Source: Paraspadella gotoi (taxonomy: Eukaryota > Animalia > Chaetognatha). Taken from it: DNA of 64,000 nt. The stretch is taken from NCBI GenBank assembly GCA_051294375.1, contig CM119269.1:8057225-8121224 (forward strand). Direction: 5' to 3'. The notes beneath the pieces were generated by a model that was not told the origin of the DNA, did no database searches, and saw nothing but the letters and a program-made list of their open reading frames with translations. Made by a program: the position numbers and the translations under genes. Of the stretch, positions 707-27,000 are shown piece by piece; the stretch's first letter is position 1; each line of letters starts with the position of its first letter.

Positions 707-18128
<17,422 letters not shown>

Positions 18129-19000: not shown

Positions 19001-20104
19001 AAAGAGAGAGAGAGAGTTGTTCTTCTCACTGGCGACTAAGTCTTTATTTTTTCTTAAAATTATATACTAAAGTGAGAAAGTTTGACACGGTCGGTTTGCT
19101 CTTTAACCCGACGTGTTTTTCAAAATCAAAGGAACAAAGATTCGTTGACGTGGGAAAATAAAACACGTTTTCCGACGTCAATGCGAATGCATCGGTGATT
19201 CAGTATAGTACGTGTCTTTCTTATTCAAATATTTTATACATTGATTGCCTCATGTTTTCTAAATTAAGAAGAATCAGTTAGTCGCTTCAGGTTTTCTTTT
19301 ACAATATAAAATTGGTACAACCAATATAAAAATATGTGAATAAACAAGAACGTTTTCGATAAATCGGAACGGTCCATGAAGCGTCATGGTAGGTGGTGCG
19401 AGGTCATGGTAGGAAAGTGAACTCATTTCTTGGCGGATTTCTGAAATGAAACCGGATCTAAGGCCCATGGAATACAAACTATTTGATTTACTAAAATAAT
19501 GAGATGAGGATGCTGGTTCGTTGATCTGCAATCCATGAGAAAAAAAAGTGTTTTGGCTTTTTGGTTTGACGTGACATGCTACGGGGAGGAATGCCGAGTT
19601 AATTCTGAGAAATAGGAAATCTCAGAAATACTGTATGGGTTAGAAATGATTGCTATGATTTTAACATTTTTGATTAAAATCAAAAAAATATTTTATGTAA
19701 TATATAATATAAAATATTATTAAAATGCTTTACTTAAATTTAAAATAATTAATTTAAATAATTTTTTTAATATTTAGAATATTTGTTTTATACAACTAAA
19801 TATTTAATTAAAATAATATTTTTAGATGTCAAAAAAGTTTATAAAATATTAAACTATTTTATAAAAAAGTTAGGTACTCTTTGAATTAATAAACTAACCT
19901 GATAAAAATTTTAATTAAATGCTTACCATATAGCTTATCAAAATTTTTAAAAAATTTAAATAAATTAAAAAAAATTTTTAAGGAGCAGTTTTTTCATCCA
20001 CCACAGTAAAAAAAAGGAGCGGCCTCCTTTTCTTTCTTCTTCCTTTTTATTTTCGATCCTATTTCACCTGAGTTCGATCGAAGACTCAAGAGTCATTCAT
20101 CCGG

Positions 20105-20245
20105 ATTCAAATTCCATTCCATTTTGATTCAAATTCCATTCCATTTTGATTCAAATTCCATTCCATTTTGATTCAAATACATTCCATTTTGATTCAAATT
20201 CCATTCCAATTTGATTCAAATTCCATTCCTTTCCTATTTCAATTC
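20105..20245. repeat. 22-bp tandem repeat (ATTCAAATTCCATTCCATTTTG) x ~6
   Basis: Direct inspection; ends about 30 nt before the OAS-like ATG. Confidence 0.9.
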
Positions 20246-20276
20246 CATCCTATCTGCTTCTTTTCCATCTCCACAA

Positions 20277-22055
20277 ATGTGGGAATCCGTCTCCTCGGAC
20301 GTCTCAAGAGGCTCGTCCGCCTTCTCCTCTTCATCCTCTTACGATTCTGGCTTCGCTCAATGCATTGCCTCCGACGTCAAGTGTGAGATCTGCCTCCTCA
20401 CCAGCTCCACCAGCGGCTGCGATTGCACCTACTCCCTATGCTGGGTGTTGGAGATCATCGTCGGCTGCGTCGCCAGCATCCTGCTGATTTGCTGCATCGC
20501 CTGCTGTTGCTGCAGGAAGAAGACGATCAACCAGACGAACATTCACAACGGGAACCAGACGAGCGACTGCAGATGCTTAAGCTGCGCGGAGATGTGCTTC
20601 AGCGCCGGACGCGACATCAACCAGATCGCGTCGTCCATCGACGGAAGCGAACCTCCTTATCAGAGGATGGAGGAGCCGGCGTCCTTAAACGCCGGAGGTC
20701 CTTGGGGTCCTGGAAACGGCGCTCTCTTGGCGACGTCGATCGGGGTCGACGGCGGTTGGAAACCGATAGAAGGCGCCGCCGATCAGACGATCATTCTCGA
20801 CGCCTTGGCTTTGCAGTCTGTGCAGATGCAACCGGAGCAGATAGTCCAGCAGCAGCAGTCCCAGCCGGTGCAGGAAACGGCTAAGATGCTCGGAGCGGCA
20901 GCTCCAGCTATCGACGCCGCCGCAGCTGCCGCCGCCACCGTACCTGCAACCGCAAAGGCTCCCGCCATTCCGGACTCCCTCTCCGCCTGCCTAGGGTTCC
21001 CCAAGACGGAGAAGGAGATCAACAAAAGCCTGGCTGAGTCCATTCGTCCAACCGAAGACGAGAAAAAGAAAATCGGTCGCCTGATGGAGACGCTGCGCAT
21101 TTGCCTGACGAAGCACTCCAAGTCGGTCGTCGTTACCAGGTGAACCGGTTAAACAATCAATCTATCATTCAGTCAATCAGTTATCTCATTAAAAGTTAAG
21201 TTAATTTATCAATCAATCCATAAACCCCCTCCGCGCCGCAGAATCTGCAAGATCGGCTCCCAGGGCAAAGGGACGGCGATTCGCAGCGACGCTGACCTCG
21301 ACGTCGTCGTCTACGCGCAGAGCCTCGTCCTCGGCGCGGAATCCGTTCCCTTGGCGCCGCAAAACGTCTTCCGTCGTTTTCGCGAAGTCTTCGTCAAGGA
21401 GCTCATGTGGAGCTTCCAAGAATGTCGAGAATGCGAGGGCGGGTCTCGACGGGATTGCGTCTCCAAAGCGCCTTTCGGTTTTTCCGCCAAAGTCGAGGGC
21501 GTGGGGATCGACGTGGGCGTGGCTTACGATCTTCTCGCCGAATGCTCTGTCGACGGCGTCGTCTCTTGGGCCGATCTAGTCGAACGTCTCCACGGGTCAG
21601 AGTTCAACGCCTCCCTGGCCGAACTGCAGAAGCGGTTCGTCCGCGACCGGCTCAACGAATGCGACCGCCTCAAGGATCTGTCGTTGCTCGTCAAGTTTTG
21701 GTATAAGCGCGTCGTCCGTCCGCGCTATGGCGGCGCTCGAGCTCCGTCTTACTTCTTCGAACTCGTCTGTCTGCATCACTGGGAGAAGGGGCTGAACCGG
21801 TCCAAGGGATTCAGGCTCGTGGCGGGTCTGCGCGGAGTGTTGGAGGCGTTGAAGCAACCGAAAGGACTCAACATCTTCTGGACGGTCAATTACTCCAAGG
21901 AAGAGGTTCGATCGGAGACTCTCATCGACTTTCCGCTCGTCCTCGATCCGGCAAACCCCACAAACAACTTGGCCAAGTTCGAAGACCCAAGGGTGTGGGC
22001 GAGCATCTCCGCCGCGGCAGCCGATGCTTTGGAGGAAGAGATCTTTAAAGGGTGA
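20277..22055 (+). CDS. 2'-5'-oligoadenylate synthetase-like nucleotidyltransferase with N-terminal transmembrane/Cys-rich extension, ~558 aa
   Basis: Exons 20277-21139 and 21242-22055 (GT-AG, phase 2, 1677 nt). OAS motifs in order: INKSLAESIRP helix, KIGSQGKGTAIRSDADLDVVV (P-loop + DxD), GIDVGVAYD (third Asp), SLAELQKRFV, LKDLSLLVKFWYK, PSYFFELVCLHHWE, IFWTVNY, PLVLDPANPTNNL. Hydrophobic run WVLEIIVGCVASILLICCIACCCC followed by RKK. True start codon uncertain. Confidence 0.88.
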
Positions 22056-23239
22056 CGTGGAAACAGTTTCAAGTTCGAATTGAAGAGAAAAAAAATTTAG
22101 AATCTTTGAAAAATGTAAATAAATCTGAAACTTAAATATTTTATTTTTATATATATACGGATTTGGGAATGAAATGAAAAGAATTGTTATAACTCTTAAC
22201 TGAATGAATGTGATTAATATTTGTTCATTTCTTTAGTTAGAAAATTCCGTGACGTTTATGTTCCTATAAAGCAACTGGTGCGCTTGCCTTCCAGCAGCTT
22301 TTTTTGCAACATTTTTCCCCTCTTATTTGATAATTCAATTTTAAACTCATTGTGAAAAAAATTGAGACGAAAGTTTTAATTTATTTTACATTTATAGTTA
22401 GTATAATGTCTCAGGAGCATGCCAAAAAATTTTCATTAATATATTTCTAGGTTTAGTTAGGCAACAGGCTCTTGCAAGATCATTGTTCTTTTCCAATTAT
22501 TTTTCAAAGCAGAAATTTTCATTTTCTATAAGTTTTAACAAGAAAACCTATAAAATGAAAATGGCTGTCATTGGAATTTTGCTCAGACATCTACTCCAAT
22601 GTCTATATTTGTAAGATGACATTTCACTTTTTTTTCATAAAATTATATCTAATAACAGGAAATTCGACCATGTCATTGATGAGCCCATAACTAAGAAACT
22701 AAGTAAGCTGGCCTACTGGGAGTTGGAAAATAAAAAACGTCAGCGATTTTTCTACCAGCGTGCAAAATCTGAAGTTGCTATAAAAAATTATTTAGCCACA
22801 GTATTTGATCCTTTAATTTCACTCCCATTTGAAATCTGTATGCGTAAAATTGGGAATAATGTGGGTTTTTTTTTACTTTTGGTTGAAATTACATGTCATA
22901 GCACTTGCCTTAATCGTGCAGTCAATTTAAGAATGTTGCATTAACAAATGTATAAACTTGTTTGGATTCATCCTCAACTGTAAATAATGTAGTACCGGAT
23001 AATATAGCTTAATCTTTGTAGTACATATCAGTTTCACGTATGTAGTTTAAATTTTTACTTTTTTTATTTAATCTTTGTGATTAATGCTGGCGAATGAAAA
23101 TATATCAAACTGGAAGAAAGATGTACAAATCATTTTTCTGGTCAAAACTTACTAGATACTTTCTTCAGAAAATTAAAATTTACATCAACATAGGATGGAA
23201 ATATTTACGGTCGTAGCGGCGCACGGTCGTGACGGTAGG

Positions 23240-24099: not shown

Positions 24100-27000
24100 C
24101 TATATCTCGTCGTCCCATTCCAATCCCCTGGAGGCTTCATCGGCTTCATCGGCTCCATCGCTCGTCAGAGATCGACTGCGGTCGGTCAAGAACACGTCGT
24201 TATCGTCGTCTTCGTCGTCGTCGCCGACTGAGATTTCGTCGATGATTTCGTCGTCTTCTTCGAATCCGTCGTCGTCGTCTTCGTTGTCGTCGTCGTCGTT
24301 ATAATCTTCGTGGAAGACGATGCGTCCTTCGTCCAGATCGATGACAGCATCCTGAGGAAAGGAAAATGTCGACTGTAAGAGTCTTCATTGGAATTGCTAT
24401 GTTATTATGTTGGCCTTATTGGCCTCATTGAATGATTAGATATTTTTTATATTAGTTGTACCGATTTCATACCCACTGAACCACCAGCCCTACCACCCGA
24501 TTCACTAACCACCCAAACCACCACCTTTAGCGGATTGACGAAGAGATTCAACTCCATCTTCTCTTCTCGATCGAGATTCTCCGCATCGACGACGTGAATC
24601 AAGGATCGAGCATTGCTCAACGAGGTCGTCGACTGCTTCAACGCCTTCCCCGAGGGTCGGTCCGTCAATCGGCCGACGCAGTACCTCAAATAGGGCATAA
24701 GGGCGGCGGCGATCAAGGCGACGATGAAGATGCAACAAACGATCATCATGACGTAGCGATATATTGTGTACGGCGGCAAGTAGTCAAGGTTGTGAAGGCT
24801 AACATCGTCCTCAACTGGCTCGTCGCTCGTCAATCTTTCCTCGATAATCTTGAGCTCGATCTCGACATCCGGCGTCTCCACCTTCTCGCCGTCGCCGCAA
24901 GTCGCCGTCGCAGTGACGATCAACTTGCGTATCGGATCCGCGGAATCGCCCCTCGTCCGGAAGAAGGCGACTTTGCGAAGGACGGAGTTGAATTTCTCCA
25001 GAGTCGTCGATCTGATGGAGAGAGACGAGTTCTCGTTGAAGTAGACGGCGCTGCGGTTCTTGCTGTCGTCGTCCCTCCATTCGAATCCTACTCCTTCGGC
25101 GCAAGTGTAGAGGCACGTCAACGTCCCGCCCAACAGATTTCCGTTCATCACTTTCATTCCCGCCAATTCGCCCCGGAAGTGACGCGTCATGACGCCATCG
25201 GCGCCGCGCCAACAAGCGCCGACCACGGTGCGAATGTCGACGACCGGCGCCGCGTGCAGCGCCCAGTCGTCGACGATTTCGGGACGAGAGGTCCAGTAGG
25301 TGGAGCCGTCGAGGTAGAGAAGGACGTTGGGGTAAGATATTATGAAAGAGTAGTGATGCCATCTGGAAGTTATGGGGTTGGAGAAAAGAATGGCGATTAT
25401 GGAATCTGATGTAGTTTGCGAAATCATTTGGTATTTTGGTAATGTAATTTGGTTTCTGAGTAATTAAATACTTATATACTTACGTATATGGTTATCTCGG
25501 ATTTAAATAAGTCCTATTTATATTCTTGTTTTTACACTTATACGTGTCCGCCTAAAACTAACATTTTAAGTTGTTCAATCTTATTTATAATTTGAAGTTT
25601 GGTTTATATGTCATTCAGTTATGATGCATAAGTATTATTTTTCCACGCATTATACGTATATTATTTATTAGAGAAATCACCTGCCGTCATCCAACTTGGG
25701 CAAACGCCAGCGCCACTCGGTCGGCATCATCTTATGACTGTGCCGCTGATCAGGAGAGTGTCGCAACAGCAGGTGCATCTTTCCGCGGGTGAGGAATATG
25801 GAAAGGTGAGGTCGATTGGAGAGAACGTAGTCGGAGAGACAGAGGATCTCCTCCTAGGGTAAGGAAAGGATGCAGTTAAATATTAAATGTAATTAAAATA
25901 TAATAAATCAACAAATCAATCTATAGATTAATAAAATCGAATAATAATAATTTTAATAAATAGATAAAAAATAATCAAAGAAAAAAATAGATAAGAGAAT
26001 AAATAAATAGGGGAATAAATAAGTAAATAAATAAATTAATAAATTAATAAGTAGATAAGTAAATATATAAAGCAATCAATCAGTCTATCACCTTGACCCC
26101 CAATTCGTTTTCTTTGTGACGCATGAAAAACACAATAGTTTTTTCGAATTTTCCGGCGACGACCGGCGTCTTAAGGGAAGCGGCGGAAACGATGATGGGG
26201 TCGTTCGGCGTAGAAAAGCGCTGCGCGTCTCCGACAAAGACGCCCGTCCACGGCAGAGGGCGCGCGGAGCAGGCGAGCTCCCTCGCCGCCGCCGCCAGCG
26301 GTGACGGCGGGGAGCAGTTAGTCCCAGCTCCGCCGGCGAGCCCGACAACGCCGTACACTTCCTCAACCTTGCAGCGCCCTCCCAATTCGAGACGCGCCTC
26401 GTCGCCGAAAATATGACGCGGCCTCGGTCCCACGAGAAAGTGAATCGCGCGGTCGACGCCGAGGAAGTTGGCGCTACGAGCGGAGACTCGGACGACGACG
26501 GTGACGGGAAATCCGCGCCGACCGCCGCAGTCTTCGGCGACGACGCCGAAAGTGACGTTGGGCGACGCCGTGTCGAGATCGAGCGGCGTGGTGATGGAAA
26601 GGACGCCGGTTGAGTCGATGGTGAAAGGCGGCGTCGGTGGTTGGATGGAATAAGAGCAGACGTCACCGAAACCAGAGGCGCAATCTTCGTCTTCAGCTTG
26701 GAGCTGTGGAAACGTGGGATGGAAAAGGAGAAGGAGGAATACGGTGAGGGATGGCGGAGTGGTAGAGCGTGGCAGAGTGACAATGGGAGAGTGGCAGAGA
26801 GGCATTGTGGCAAAGAGTCACTAAGTTAAAGTTACAGCGTAGCATTGTGGCATTGAGTCAAAATGGTTGAGTGGCAGAGTTAAATAATACATACTACATA
26901 AAAAATAATTAAACATGGCTGCCTTCATTAGCAAGTTTAATGCGAAAAAAGCTTTTTGATAATAAAAAAAAAATTATGAGACGAATAAACAAAAACGAAT

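What the first reader, a model, noticed from the sequence alone, without database searches (positions are those of the whole stretch)
20277..22055. Membrane-anchored, receptor-like OAS: Cys-rich segment + TM helix + Cys cluster fused to an intact 2-5A synthetase domain
Seen: one uninterrupted exon encodes a Ser-rich start, a Cys-rich segment (CIASDVKCEICLLTSSTSGCDCTYSLC), a ~24-aa hydrophobic helix (20442-20513) ending in CCIACCCC-RKK, a second Cys cluster (CRCLSCAEMC), an EPPY motif, an Ala/Gln linker and the first OAS helix. Exon 2 has the P-loop and all three catalytic Asp positions. Because the TM and OAS start share an exon, the fusion is not a gene-joining artefact. Known: vertebrate OAS enzymes are soluble dsRNA sensors, and human OAS1 p46 reaches membranes by C-terminal prenylation rather than a TM helix; Cys-rich/TM/poly-Cys/PY layouts are typical of Shisa-like/WBP1/VOPP1 adaptors. 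Inference: basic residues after the helix put the enzyme in the cytosol, so this may be a palmitoylated single-pass sensor that makes a nucleotide second messenger at membranes, either at viral replication organelles or upon a lumenal/extracellular cue. I do not know of a described OAS with this architecture.
Basis: partly seen in the sequence, partly recalled or inferred. Interest (0 to 1): 0.88.

Follow-up and report, generated by a model that had tools for sequence, protein, structure and literature searches.

The report
Membrane-spanning OAS enzyme with cysteine ectodomain
This animal gene, spliced in one transcript assembly and shared with at least three related sequences, joins an OAS antiviral-type nucleotide enzyme to a predicted membrane-spanning helix and a small conserved cysteine-rich outer domain, so it likely works as a double-stranded-RNA sensor built into cell membranes rather than held there by a lipid tag.

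Summary
The gene has two exons and encodes 558 aa. One contig of run X7 covers the TM and OAS parts and skips exactly the 102-nt GT-AG intron, which DNA run X2 keeps. Exon 2 is OAS by Pfam (E 2.4e-30) and by fold (pLDDT 92, top hit human OAS1); the P-loop, three Asp and the K66/R195/E233 switch positions are kept. Three further unnamed sequences (P0001, P0003 cluster, P0156) share the six-Cys/TM/basic/PYxxPhi N-terminus, whose ectodomain is about as conserved as the enzyme. Corrections: EPPY is not a PPxY/LPxY motif; the conserved motif is YxxPhi. The Cys pattern and the missing signal peptide do not fit Shisa-like proteins. Membrane OAS has precedent: lipid-anchored OAS1 p46 and OAS2, and mouse Oas1b with a C-terminal TM but no activity. 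An N-terminal ectodomain plus TM on a catalytically intact OAS was not found in my literature searches. Best reading: a type III endomembrane-tethered dsRNA sensor, possibly making a non-standard product (altered acceptor pocket). A ligand-gated receptor is not excluded (about 15%), but a variable 150-250 aa linker argues against it. Host taxon, activity and localisation are untested.

The parts
20104..20229 (.). 22-bp tandem repeat, 5.8 copies, just upstream of the start codon (5' UTR/promoter region); contains the in-frame TGA at 20190-20192
   Evidence: TRF; upstream stop and no ATG or AG between 20093 and 20276
20277..21139 (+). Coding exon 1 (residues 1-288): N-terminal module, linker and first OAS helices/strand
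   Evidence: covered by X7 contig
20277..20339 (+). Ser-rich start, residues 1-21, not conserved, no signal peptide-like hydrophobic stretch
20340..20444 (+). Six-Cys mini-domain (C29, C36, C39, C48, C50, C55; consensus C-x6..14-CExCLL-x5..6-GCxCxYxxCW), predicted lumenal/extracellular
   Evidence: invariant columns in alignment A4; 19/35, 19/35 and 13/35 identity to P0156, P0001, P0003
20445..20513 (+). Predicted transmembrane helix (residues 57-79) ending in a Cys run; the Cys are likely palmitoylation sites (inference)
   Evidence: hydropathy; homologs keep it at 6-8 of 23 identity
20514..20522 (+). RKK basic stop-transfer cluster, predicting a cytosolic C-terminus
   Evidence: flank charges 0 vs 3-5 K/R in window, P0001 and P0003; KKR in P0156
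20568..20597 (+). Second, cytosolic-side Cys cluster (C98-C107); only C107 invariant
20655..20669 (+). P-Y-x-x-Phi motif (PYQRM; PYAVL and PYGVL in homologs): a tyrosine-based sorting-signal pattern, not PPxY
   Evidence: YxxPhi base rate 603 of 2334 Tyr in the held proteins
20670..20972 (+). Low-complexity Ala/Gln/Pro linker; TM-to-OAS distance 152 aa here, 189-253 aa in homologs
20973..21139 (+). OAS N-lobe helices and first strand (residues 233-288)
   Evidence: 25-29 of 56 identical to four homologs; profile alignment to OAS1
21140..21241 (+). 102-nt GT..AG intron
   Evidence: skipped in the X7 contig, retained in DNA contig X2
21242..22055 (+). Coding exon 2 (residues 289-558): P-loop G293/S294, K297, D306, D308, D378, Q417, K418, R422, K439, E461; clade-specific Cys C349/C352/C360/C389 and N410
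   Evidence: PF10421 E 2.4e-30; PDB sequence hits; model pLDDT 92; Foldseek top hit 4ig8 E 4e-14; column counts

Best explanation
The gene encodes an OAS-family nucleotidyltransferase fused behind a conserved six-cysteine mini-domain and a predicted single membrane-spanning helix, and it likely acts as a membrane-built, cytosol-facing double-stranded-RNA sensor that would make an oligonucleotide messenger at endomembranes. Shown: the spliced fusion, its conservation, the OAS fold, and retention of the catalytic and RNA-switch positions. Inferred: type III insertion (N-terminus out, no signal peptide, basic cluster inside); disulfide-bonded ectodomain; palmitoylation of the juxtamembrane Cys; YxxPhi-driven sorting to endosomes/TGN. 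The enzyme would hang 150-250 residues off the membrane on a flexible tether, to meet dsRNA at membrane-bound viral replication or entry sites, as OAS1 p46 and OAS2 do with lipid anchors. The ectodomain would serve sorting, folding or partner binding rather than switching the enzyme directly. The product may not be standard 2-5A, because acceptor-pocket residues are changed. The downstream effector is unknown and probably not RNase L.
For: Splicing and one-contig continuity. Same architecture in P0001, the P0003/4/5 cluster and P0156, all OAS domains forming one clade at 100/99. Catalytic triad, P-loop and the Lys matching pig K212 are kept in 4 of 4 full OAS domains. The dsRNA-switch triad K66/R195/E233 (PMC13372824 and PMC11359028 passages) maps to K297/K418/E461, and pig R194/R198, whose charge swap cuts dsRNA-dependent catalysis about 10,000-fold, maps to K418/R422. 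Precedent that membrane targeting is required for OAS2 and OAS1 p46 activity. Linker identity is 19-24% and its length 152-253 aa, which fits a tether. YxxPhi sits at the same place in 4 of 4 N-termini against a 26% base rate, though these share ancestry. All 3 SNPs inside exon 2 are synonymous, and none of 7 SNPs breaks the frame.
Against: No activity, localisation or dsRNA binding was measured, and topology rests on hydropathy and charges only (no DeepTMHMM/SignalP here). The ectodomain core is 52-67% identical across homologs, as high as the enzyme (52-53%), which is more than a passive anchor needs. Pig R209 is Leu in the clade (Arg in 65 of 78 other rows) and S186 is Asn (Ser in 71 of 78); the window alone has Gly for L149. 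Sponge-type OAS appear to be dsRNA-independent (PMC6307210 section 13). Expression rests on one run whose RNA status is the tool's guess.
Confidence: 0.55

Rival explanations
1. True receptor-enzyme: a lumenal or extracellular ligand (or a partner membrane protein, or a redox change) engages the six-Cys domain and clusters the protein, and clustering licenses or triggers the cytosolic synthetase, alone or together with dsRNA.
For: Ectodomain residues beyond Cys (E37, L40, L41, G47, Y52, W56) are invariant in 4 of 4 distinct N-termini, and the ectodomain is as conserved as the enzyme while the TM and linker are not. OAS2 shows that oligomer state and membrane position control OAS activity.
Against: The ectodomain is only about 30-35 residues. 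The enzyme is 152-253 low-complexity residues from the membrane, so conformational coupling is implausible and only clustering could work. The dsRNA-switch residues are retained.
Confidence: 0.15
2. dsRNA-independent membrane nucleotide synthase, like sponge OAS, making 2'-5'/3'-5' or mixed-base products and controlled by trafficking and turnover rather than by RNA.
For: Acceptor-pocket positions pig S186, T187, T190 (and probably R129) are changed. Hu et al. link T187/T190 change to 3'-5' products and describe ancestral OAS as apparently dsRNA-independent (PMC6307210 section 13). R209 is Leu.
Against: K297/K418/R422/R430/K432/E461 are kept across the clade. The clade groups with vertebrate-type OAS at 99/98 in a 32-row tree, though on long branches and with a midpoint root.
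Confidence: 0.15
3. Different topology: the hydrophobic helix is re-entrant and the N-terminal CxxC/CxC motifs bind zinc in the cytosol (LITAF-like, recalled), or the protein is type II with a lumenal OAS domain.
For: CxxC before the helix and CxxC after it in the window and P0001. No signal peptide. N-x-T sequons lie C-terminal to the helix in the window and P0003.
Against: The downstream CxxC is absent in P0003 and P0156. There is no LITAF Pfam hit at E<=1 or E<=5. Charges are 0 vs 3-5 K/R. The six Cys are an even number that fits three disulfides. A lumenal OAS would lack its ATP/dsRNA context (inference).
Confidence: 0.1
4. Catalytically weak or inactive membrane scaffold acting like mouse Oas1b (RNA binding and partner recruitment without messenger synthesis).
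For: Oas1b is a TM-anchored, inactive but antiviral OAS. The window's Gly at the L149 position and the other pocket changes could lower activity.
Against: All three Asp, the P-loop, K297, Q417 and K439 are kept in 4 of 4 sequences at about 52% overall identity. R129A costs only about 40% activity in pig OAS1 (PMC13129866 passage).
Confidence: 0.05

Closest known systems
Vertebrate OAS1 (human 4IG8, pig 4RWN)
   Same: Fold (Foldseek E 4e-14, TM 0.76-0.78, 27-28% identity); P-loop, Asp triad and K66/R195/E233 switch positions.
   Different: OAS1 has no TM or ectodomain (p46 uses C-terminal prenylation). Acceptor-pocket S186/T187/T190 and R209 positions differ. The clade has four extra conserved Cys (C349, C352, C360, C389) in the OAS domain.
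Human OAS2
   Same: Best sequence hit in PDB (9H1Z, E 1e-39); anchored through its N-terminus, with membrane targeting needed for activity.
   Different: OAS2 uses myristoylation, has two OAS domains and a C652/H654 zinc dimer. This protein has one domain and an integral helix with an ectodomain.
Mouse Oas1b
   Same: OAS with a protein TM anchor at an endomembrane (ER) (PMC13372824 and PMC5473748 passages; Courtney 2012 itself not read).
   Different: The Oas1b anchor is C-terminal and the protein lacks synthetase activity. Here the anchor is N-terminal with a Cys ectodomain and the catalytic residues are intact.
Shisa-like / STMC6 adaptors (WBP1, VOPP1, CYYR1, TMEM52-like)
   Same: Six Cys, then one TM, then juxtamembrane Cys and basic residues. 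Weak leads only: TMEM52 E 0.003-0.007, below its cut-off, for P0003/P0004; Atlas scores 0.75-0.78 for CYYR1/WBP-1/Shisa clusters.
   Different: The Cys pattern is C*CxxC*CxC*C, not C*C*CC*CC. There is no signal peptide, no PPxY/LPxY, and a fused enzyme.
Other invertebrate OAS gene models with an N-terminal hydrophobic stretch (Amphiura XP_072036190, Dendronephthya XP_028407254, Orbicella XP_020627944)
   Same: Hydrophobic segment ahead of one OAS domain.
   Different: No six-Cys module (N-terminal HMM does not hit them); they fall on the other side of a 99/98 branch; they are unverified automatic models, and the Orbicella one seems to lack the first OAS helices.
TM-bearing members of the cGLR branch (MiD49/MiD51, ITPRIP)
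   Same: Nucleotidyltransferase fold on a membrane anchor (TM recalled, not tested; listed as cGLR paralogs in PMC10732462 passage).
   Different: They belong to the Mab21/cGLR superfamily, a separate origin from OAS according to that paper.

Membership tests
OAS superfamily | OAS1_C domain (PF10421) above the curated cut-off | tested here: met
   105.9 bits against 19.9
OAS superfamily | OAS fold | tested here: met
   model of exon 2 pLDDT 92, pTM 0.89; top 10 Foldseek hits all OAS1/2/3/L
OAS superfamily | P-loop GS, three catalytic Asp, triphosphate-binding Lys | tested here: met
   G293/S294, D306/D308/D378, K297, K439 in 4 of 4 full domains
Vertebrate-type dsRNA-activated 2-5A synthetase | dsRNA switch and basic RNA-binding residues | tested here: inconclusive
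   K66/R195/E233 and pig R194/R198/K203 positions kept as K297/K418/E461/R422/R430; pig R209 position is Leu; sequence only
Vertebrate-type dsRNA-activated 2-5A synthetase | 2'-specific acceptor pocket (pig V78, R129, L149, S186, T187, T190, Q193) | tested here: not met
   V310 and Q417 kept; N410, A411, A414, G380 differ (homologs keep Leu149 and Thr187 but share Asn and a non-Thr at 190); R129 position uncertain, probably Pro
Vertebrate-type dsRNA-activated 2-5A synthetase | Makes 2'-5' oligoadenylate on dsRNA and activates RNase L | not testable with these tools
   needs assay; no host genome held to look for RNase L
Shisa-like / STMC6 | Six Cys in a C*C*CC*CC pattern | tested here: not met
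   pattern here C*CxxC*CxC*C; definition from PMC5578492 passage
Shisa-like / STMC6 | Signal sequence before the Cys domain | tested here: not met
   no second hydrophobic stretch; in-frame stop at 20190, no upstream ATG or AG acceptor after 20092. P0156 has a hydrophobic N-terminal extension that may be untranslated read-through; no SignalP available
Shisa-like / STMC6 | Cytosolic PPxY/LPxY motifs | tested here: not met
   none in window, P0001, P0002 or P0003
Shisa-like / STMC6 | Single TM followed by Cys and basic residues | tested here: met
   shared with many unrelated membrane proteins
LITAF-like monotopic Zn domain (recalled) | Conserved CxxC knuckles on both sides of the hydrophobic helix | tested here: not met
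   downstream CxxC in 2 of 4 N-termini only; no Pfam hit

The most novel reading that the evidence does not exclude
A receptor-type OAS: the conserved six-cysteine ectodomain senses a lumenal or extracellular ligand, and clustering turns on a cytosolic synthetase whose altered acceptor pocket makes a new nucleotide second messenger. This would be the first animal CD-NTase/OAS wired as a transmembrane receptor enzyme, in a lineage without a known RNase L effector.
Probability: 0.15. Interest if true: 0.92.

Novelty: new variant of a known kind. Interest (0 to 1): 0.63.

Why it matters
Membrane position is now known to decide whether OAS1 p46 and OAS2 work, and both use lipid tags. Here an invertebrate lineage appears to have solved the same problem with an integral helix, a sorting motif and a conserved ectodomain, which would be independent evidence that endomembrane surveillance is a recurring design for OAS. 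Invertebrate OAS have no known effector (no RNase L in 12 of 12 lower metazoans in PMC6307210 Table 1). A single-domain enzyme with a changed acceptor pocket and a fixed location is a direct handle on what invertebrate OAS make and where. If the ectodomain gates the enzyme, it would be a new class of receptor.

Tried and rejected
Gene-joining artefact or downstream start: rejected, because TM and OAS start share one ORF and one spliced contig and homologs share the layout. No listed run is on record as RNA: 'no RNA holder listed'. Whole-genome checks (paralogs, RNase L, STING) were impossible because no genome is held. Full-length fold of P0003 from a 5-row alignment failed (pLDDT 36), so there is no model of the ectodomain, and no coordinates were available to test whether C349/C352/C360/C389 form a zinc site. 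Homodimer prediction for residues 22-90 gave no answer (score 0.02); it is not evidence either way. ESM Atlas gave only leads under 0.9 for the N-terminus (best 0.83 and 0.81, unnamed nematode clusters). N-terminal search with P0001 residues 1-110 found only itself among 19 candidates. No relatives in JGI metagenome contigs or viral contigs. Host lineage could not be placed: the neighbouring calsyntenin exon gave no hit at E<=0.01 among 7997 candidates. Earlier scan findings: none by sequence or words. Literature searches gave no paper describing an OAS with an N-terminal TM/ectodomain; 'transmembrane' occurs 0 times in PMC6307210.

Full report
Observation. The region holds a two-exon gene on the + strand: exon 1 20277-21139, a 102-nt GT..AG intron, and exon 2 21242-22055, giving 558 aa. 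It lies between a TPR gene that ends near 18128 (TPR hits; CFAP70-like is my recalled label) and a calsyntenin-like gene on the minus strand (weak cadherin and CLSTN_C hits). The host is therefore a spliceosomal animal; no genome is held and the lineage could not be named. Nine runs of one organism in three studies hold the stretch. Of four laid, X7 has one 1881-nt contig that runs from 20262 to 22100 and skips exactly the intron; DNA run X2 spans the stretch unspliced in one piece, and none of the three DNA runs shows the joint. X7's RNA status is the tool's guess, but an exact GT-AG skip absent from DNA is what a transcript gives. X1 or X2 may be the window's source. Seven SNPs were seen: three missense in exon 1 (V57M, A152S, I172L) and four synonymous, including all three in exon 2.

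The enzyme. Exon 2 matches OAS1_C at E 2.4e-30. All but one of 8 PDB sequence hits are OAS proteins, best OAS2 at 1e-39, the eighth being bacterial CdnC. An 85-row alignment gave a model with pLDDT 92 whose top ten Foldseek hits are OAS1/2/3/L. P-loop, D306/D308/D378, K297, Q417, K439 and E461 are present in 4 of 4 full clade domains. The RNA-triggered K66/R195/E233 exchange of OAS1 (passages of PMC13372824 and PMC11359028) maps to K297/K418/E461, and pig R194/R198 map to K418/R422. Against a plain OAS1 reading: the pig S186 position is Asn in the clade (Ser in 71 of 78 other rows), T187 and T190 are Ala here, L149 is Gly in the window only, R129 is probably Pro, and R209 is Leu (Arg in 65 of 78; the first domain of OAS2 also has Leu). 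These residues line the acceptor pocket (PMC6307210 section 13; PMC13129866 passages), so the product may differ from 2-5A. The clade also carries a conserved CxxC-x7-C plus C389 in the OAS domain; a zinc site is possible but untested.

The N-terminus. Residues 57-79 are the only strongly hydrophobic stretch (2.94 against 1.47), with 0 basic residues before and 3 after. A search among longer proteins gave 3 hits of 7995 candidates. P0001 (687 aa) and P0003 (715 aa; cluster mates P0004, P0005) have the same N-terminus; P0002 (486 aa, on a 1836-nt contig) starts inside the linker and may be truncated. A fourth N-terminus, P0156, came up as a cluster mate of fragment P0029 and runs from the Cys module to the OAS P-loop. 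Across these four distinct N-termini C29, C36, E37, C39, L40, L41, G47, C48, C50, Y52, C55, W56, C76, C79, C107, D113, P127 and Y128 are invariant. Similarity far exceeds shuffles (0 of 2000). Identity to the window by region is 37-54% for the ectodomain (52-67% in its core), 26-35% for the TM, 19-24% for the linker and 52-53% for exon 2; TM-to-enzyme distance is 152, 189, 194 and 253 aa. YxxPhi as an adaptor-binding sorting signal is established knowledge, recalled. All homologs are unnamed ENA records, so whether they are different species or paralogs is unknown; four more clusters of C-terminal fragments (P0009, P0014, P0017, P0039) look like the same clade.

Distribution. The profile search of 1.84 billion representatives gave 371 hits, of which the top 150 were inspected. 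Of 152 proteins then held, 11 had a hydrophobic window of at least 1.9: four clade members, three unrelated single-domain OAS models with an N-terminal hydrophobic stretch (Amphiura, Dendronephthya, Orbicella), one mid-protein stretch in a ray model, and three marginal. An HMM of the N-terminal module hit only clade members, 5 of 163 held proteins plus the window's own frame. In a careful 32-row tree (chosen from 101 domains of the quick tree) the four TM-OAS domains are one clade (100/99), sister to three unnamed OAS without the module (97/94), and together they group with nine vertebrate-type rows (99/98; only three of the nine are named). Branches are long and the root is a midpoint, so that placement is a hint. 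The fusion most simply arose once on the clade's stem.

Mechanism. Shown: spliced fusion, conservation, OAS fold, intact catalytic and switch positions. Inferred: a type III single-pass protein with a small disulfide-bonded outer domain, palmitoylated juxtamembrane Cys, a YxxPhi signal that would sort it to endosomes/TGN, and a cytosolic OAS on a long tether that dsRNA would activate near membranes (0.55). The conserved ectodomain keeps a ligand-gated receptor open (0.15), but the long variable linker allows only clustering, not direct coupling. A dsRNA-independent sponge-like synthase (0.15), another topology (0.10) and an inactive scaffold (0.05) are the other rivals.

Comparison with what is known. 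It is a member of the OAS superfamily; it fails the pocket test for vertebrate 2'-specific OAS1 while resembling it in switch residues. It is not a Shisa-like member: Cys pattern, signal peptide and PY motifs all fail (definitions from passages of PMC5578492 and PMC6125347; Pei and Grishin 2012 not read). Membrane OAS is known: prenylated OAS1 p46 and myristoylated Golgi OAS2 (bioRxiv 10.1101/2025.01.28.635220 passages) and mouse Oas1b with a C-terminal TM and no synthetase activity (passages). Searches (listings and abstract starts), passages of PMC10732462 and passages plus sections 12-13 of PMC6307210 showed no OAS with an N-terminal ectodomain and TM. The library lacks most subscription papers, and I read no supplements, where invertebrate OAS domain tables could mention such proteins.

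Verdict. A real, spliced, conserved and apparently undescribed architecture: a new variant of a known kind. Interest 0.63; the receptor reading has probability about 0.15 and would deserve 0.92.

Noticed in passing
window 37071-62640: Several kilobase-scale direct and inverted copies (92-98% identical, units up to about 5.8 kb) carrying GA-rich low-complexity ORFs; a segmental array or repeated element, or an assembly artefact.
   Followed up: partly
window 5292-7191 (-): Multi-exon PfkB-family (ribokinase-like) gene.
   Followed up: no
window about 12745-18128 (+): Multi-exon TPR gene ending upstream of the OAS gene, CFAP70-like by recall.
   Followed up: partly
window 24447-26817 (-): Highly diverged calsyntenin-like gene with few, long exons; no database homolog at E<=0.01.
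   Followed up: partly
window 20104-20229: 22-bp tandem repeat (5.8 copies) directly upstream of the OAS start codon; the X7 contig would reach into it if collinear.
   Followed up: partly
P0001, P0002, P0003: Homologs carry 60-110 aa Gly/Ser-rich insertions right after the second catalytic strand of the OAS domain, where the window has a short hairpin.
   Followed up: no
P0145 (KAJ3329148.1, Blyttiomyces): Chytrid protein with five dsRNA-binding motifs fused to two OAS domains.
   Followed up: no
P0006, P0012, P0013, P0016: Multi-OAS plus multi-ubiquitin-like tandem proteins, up to four OAS domains and six ubiquitin-like stretches in the shark model P0006.
   Followed up: no
P0083/P0153 (Amphiura XP_072036190/189), P0020 (Dendronephthya XP_028407254): Unrelated invertebrate OAS models with their own N-terminal hydrophobic stretch, suggesting repeated gain of membrane anchors.
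   Followed up: partly
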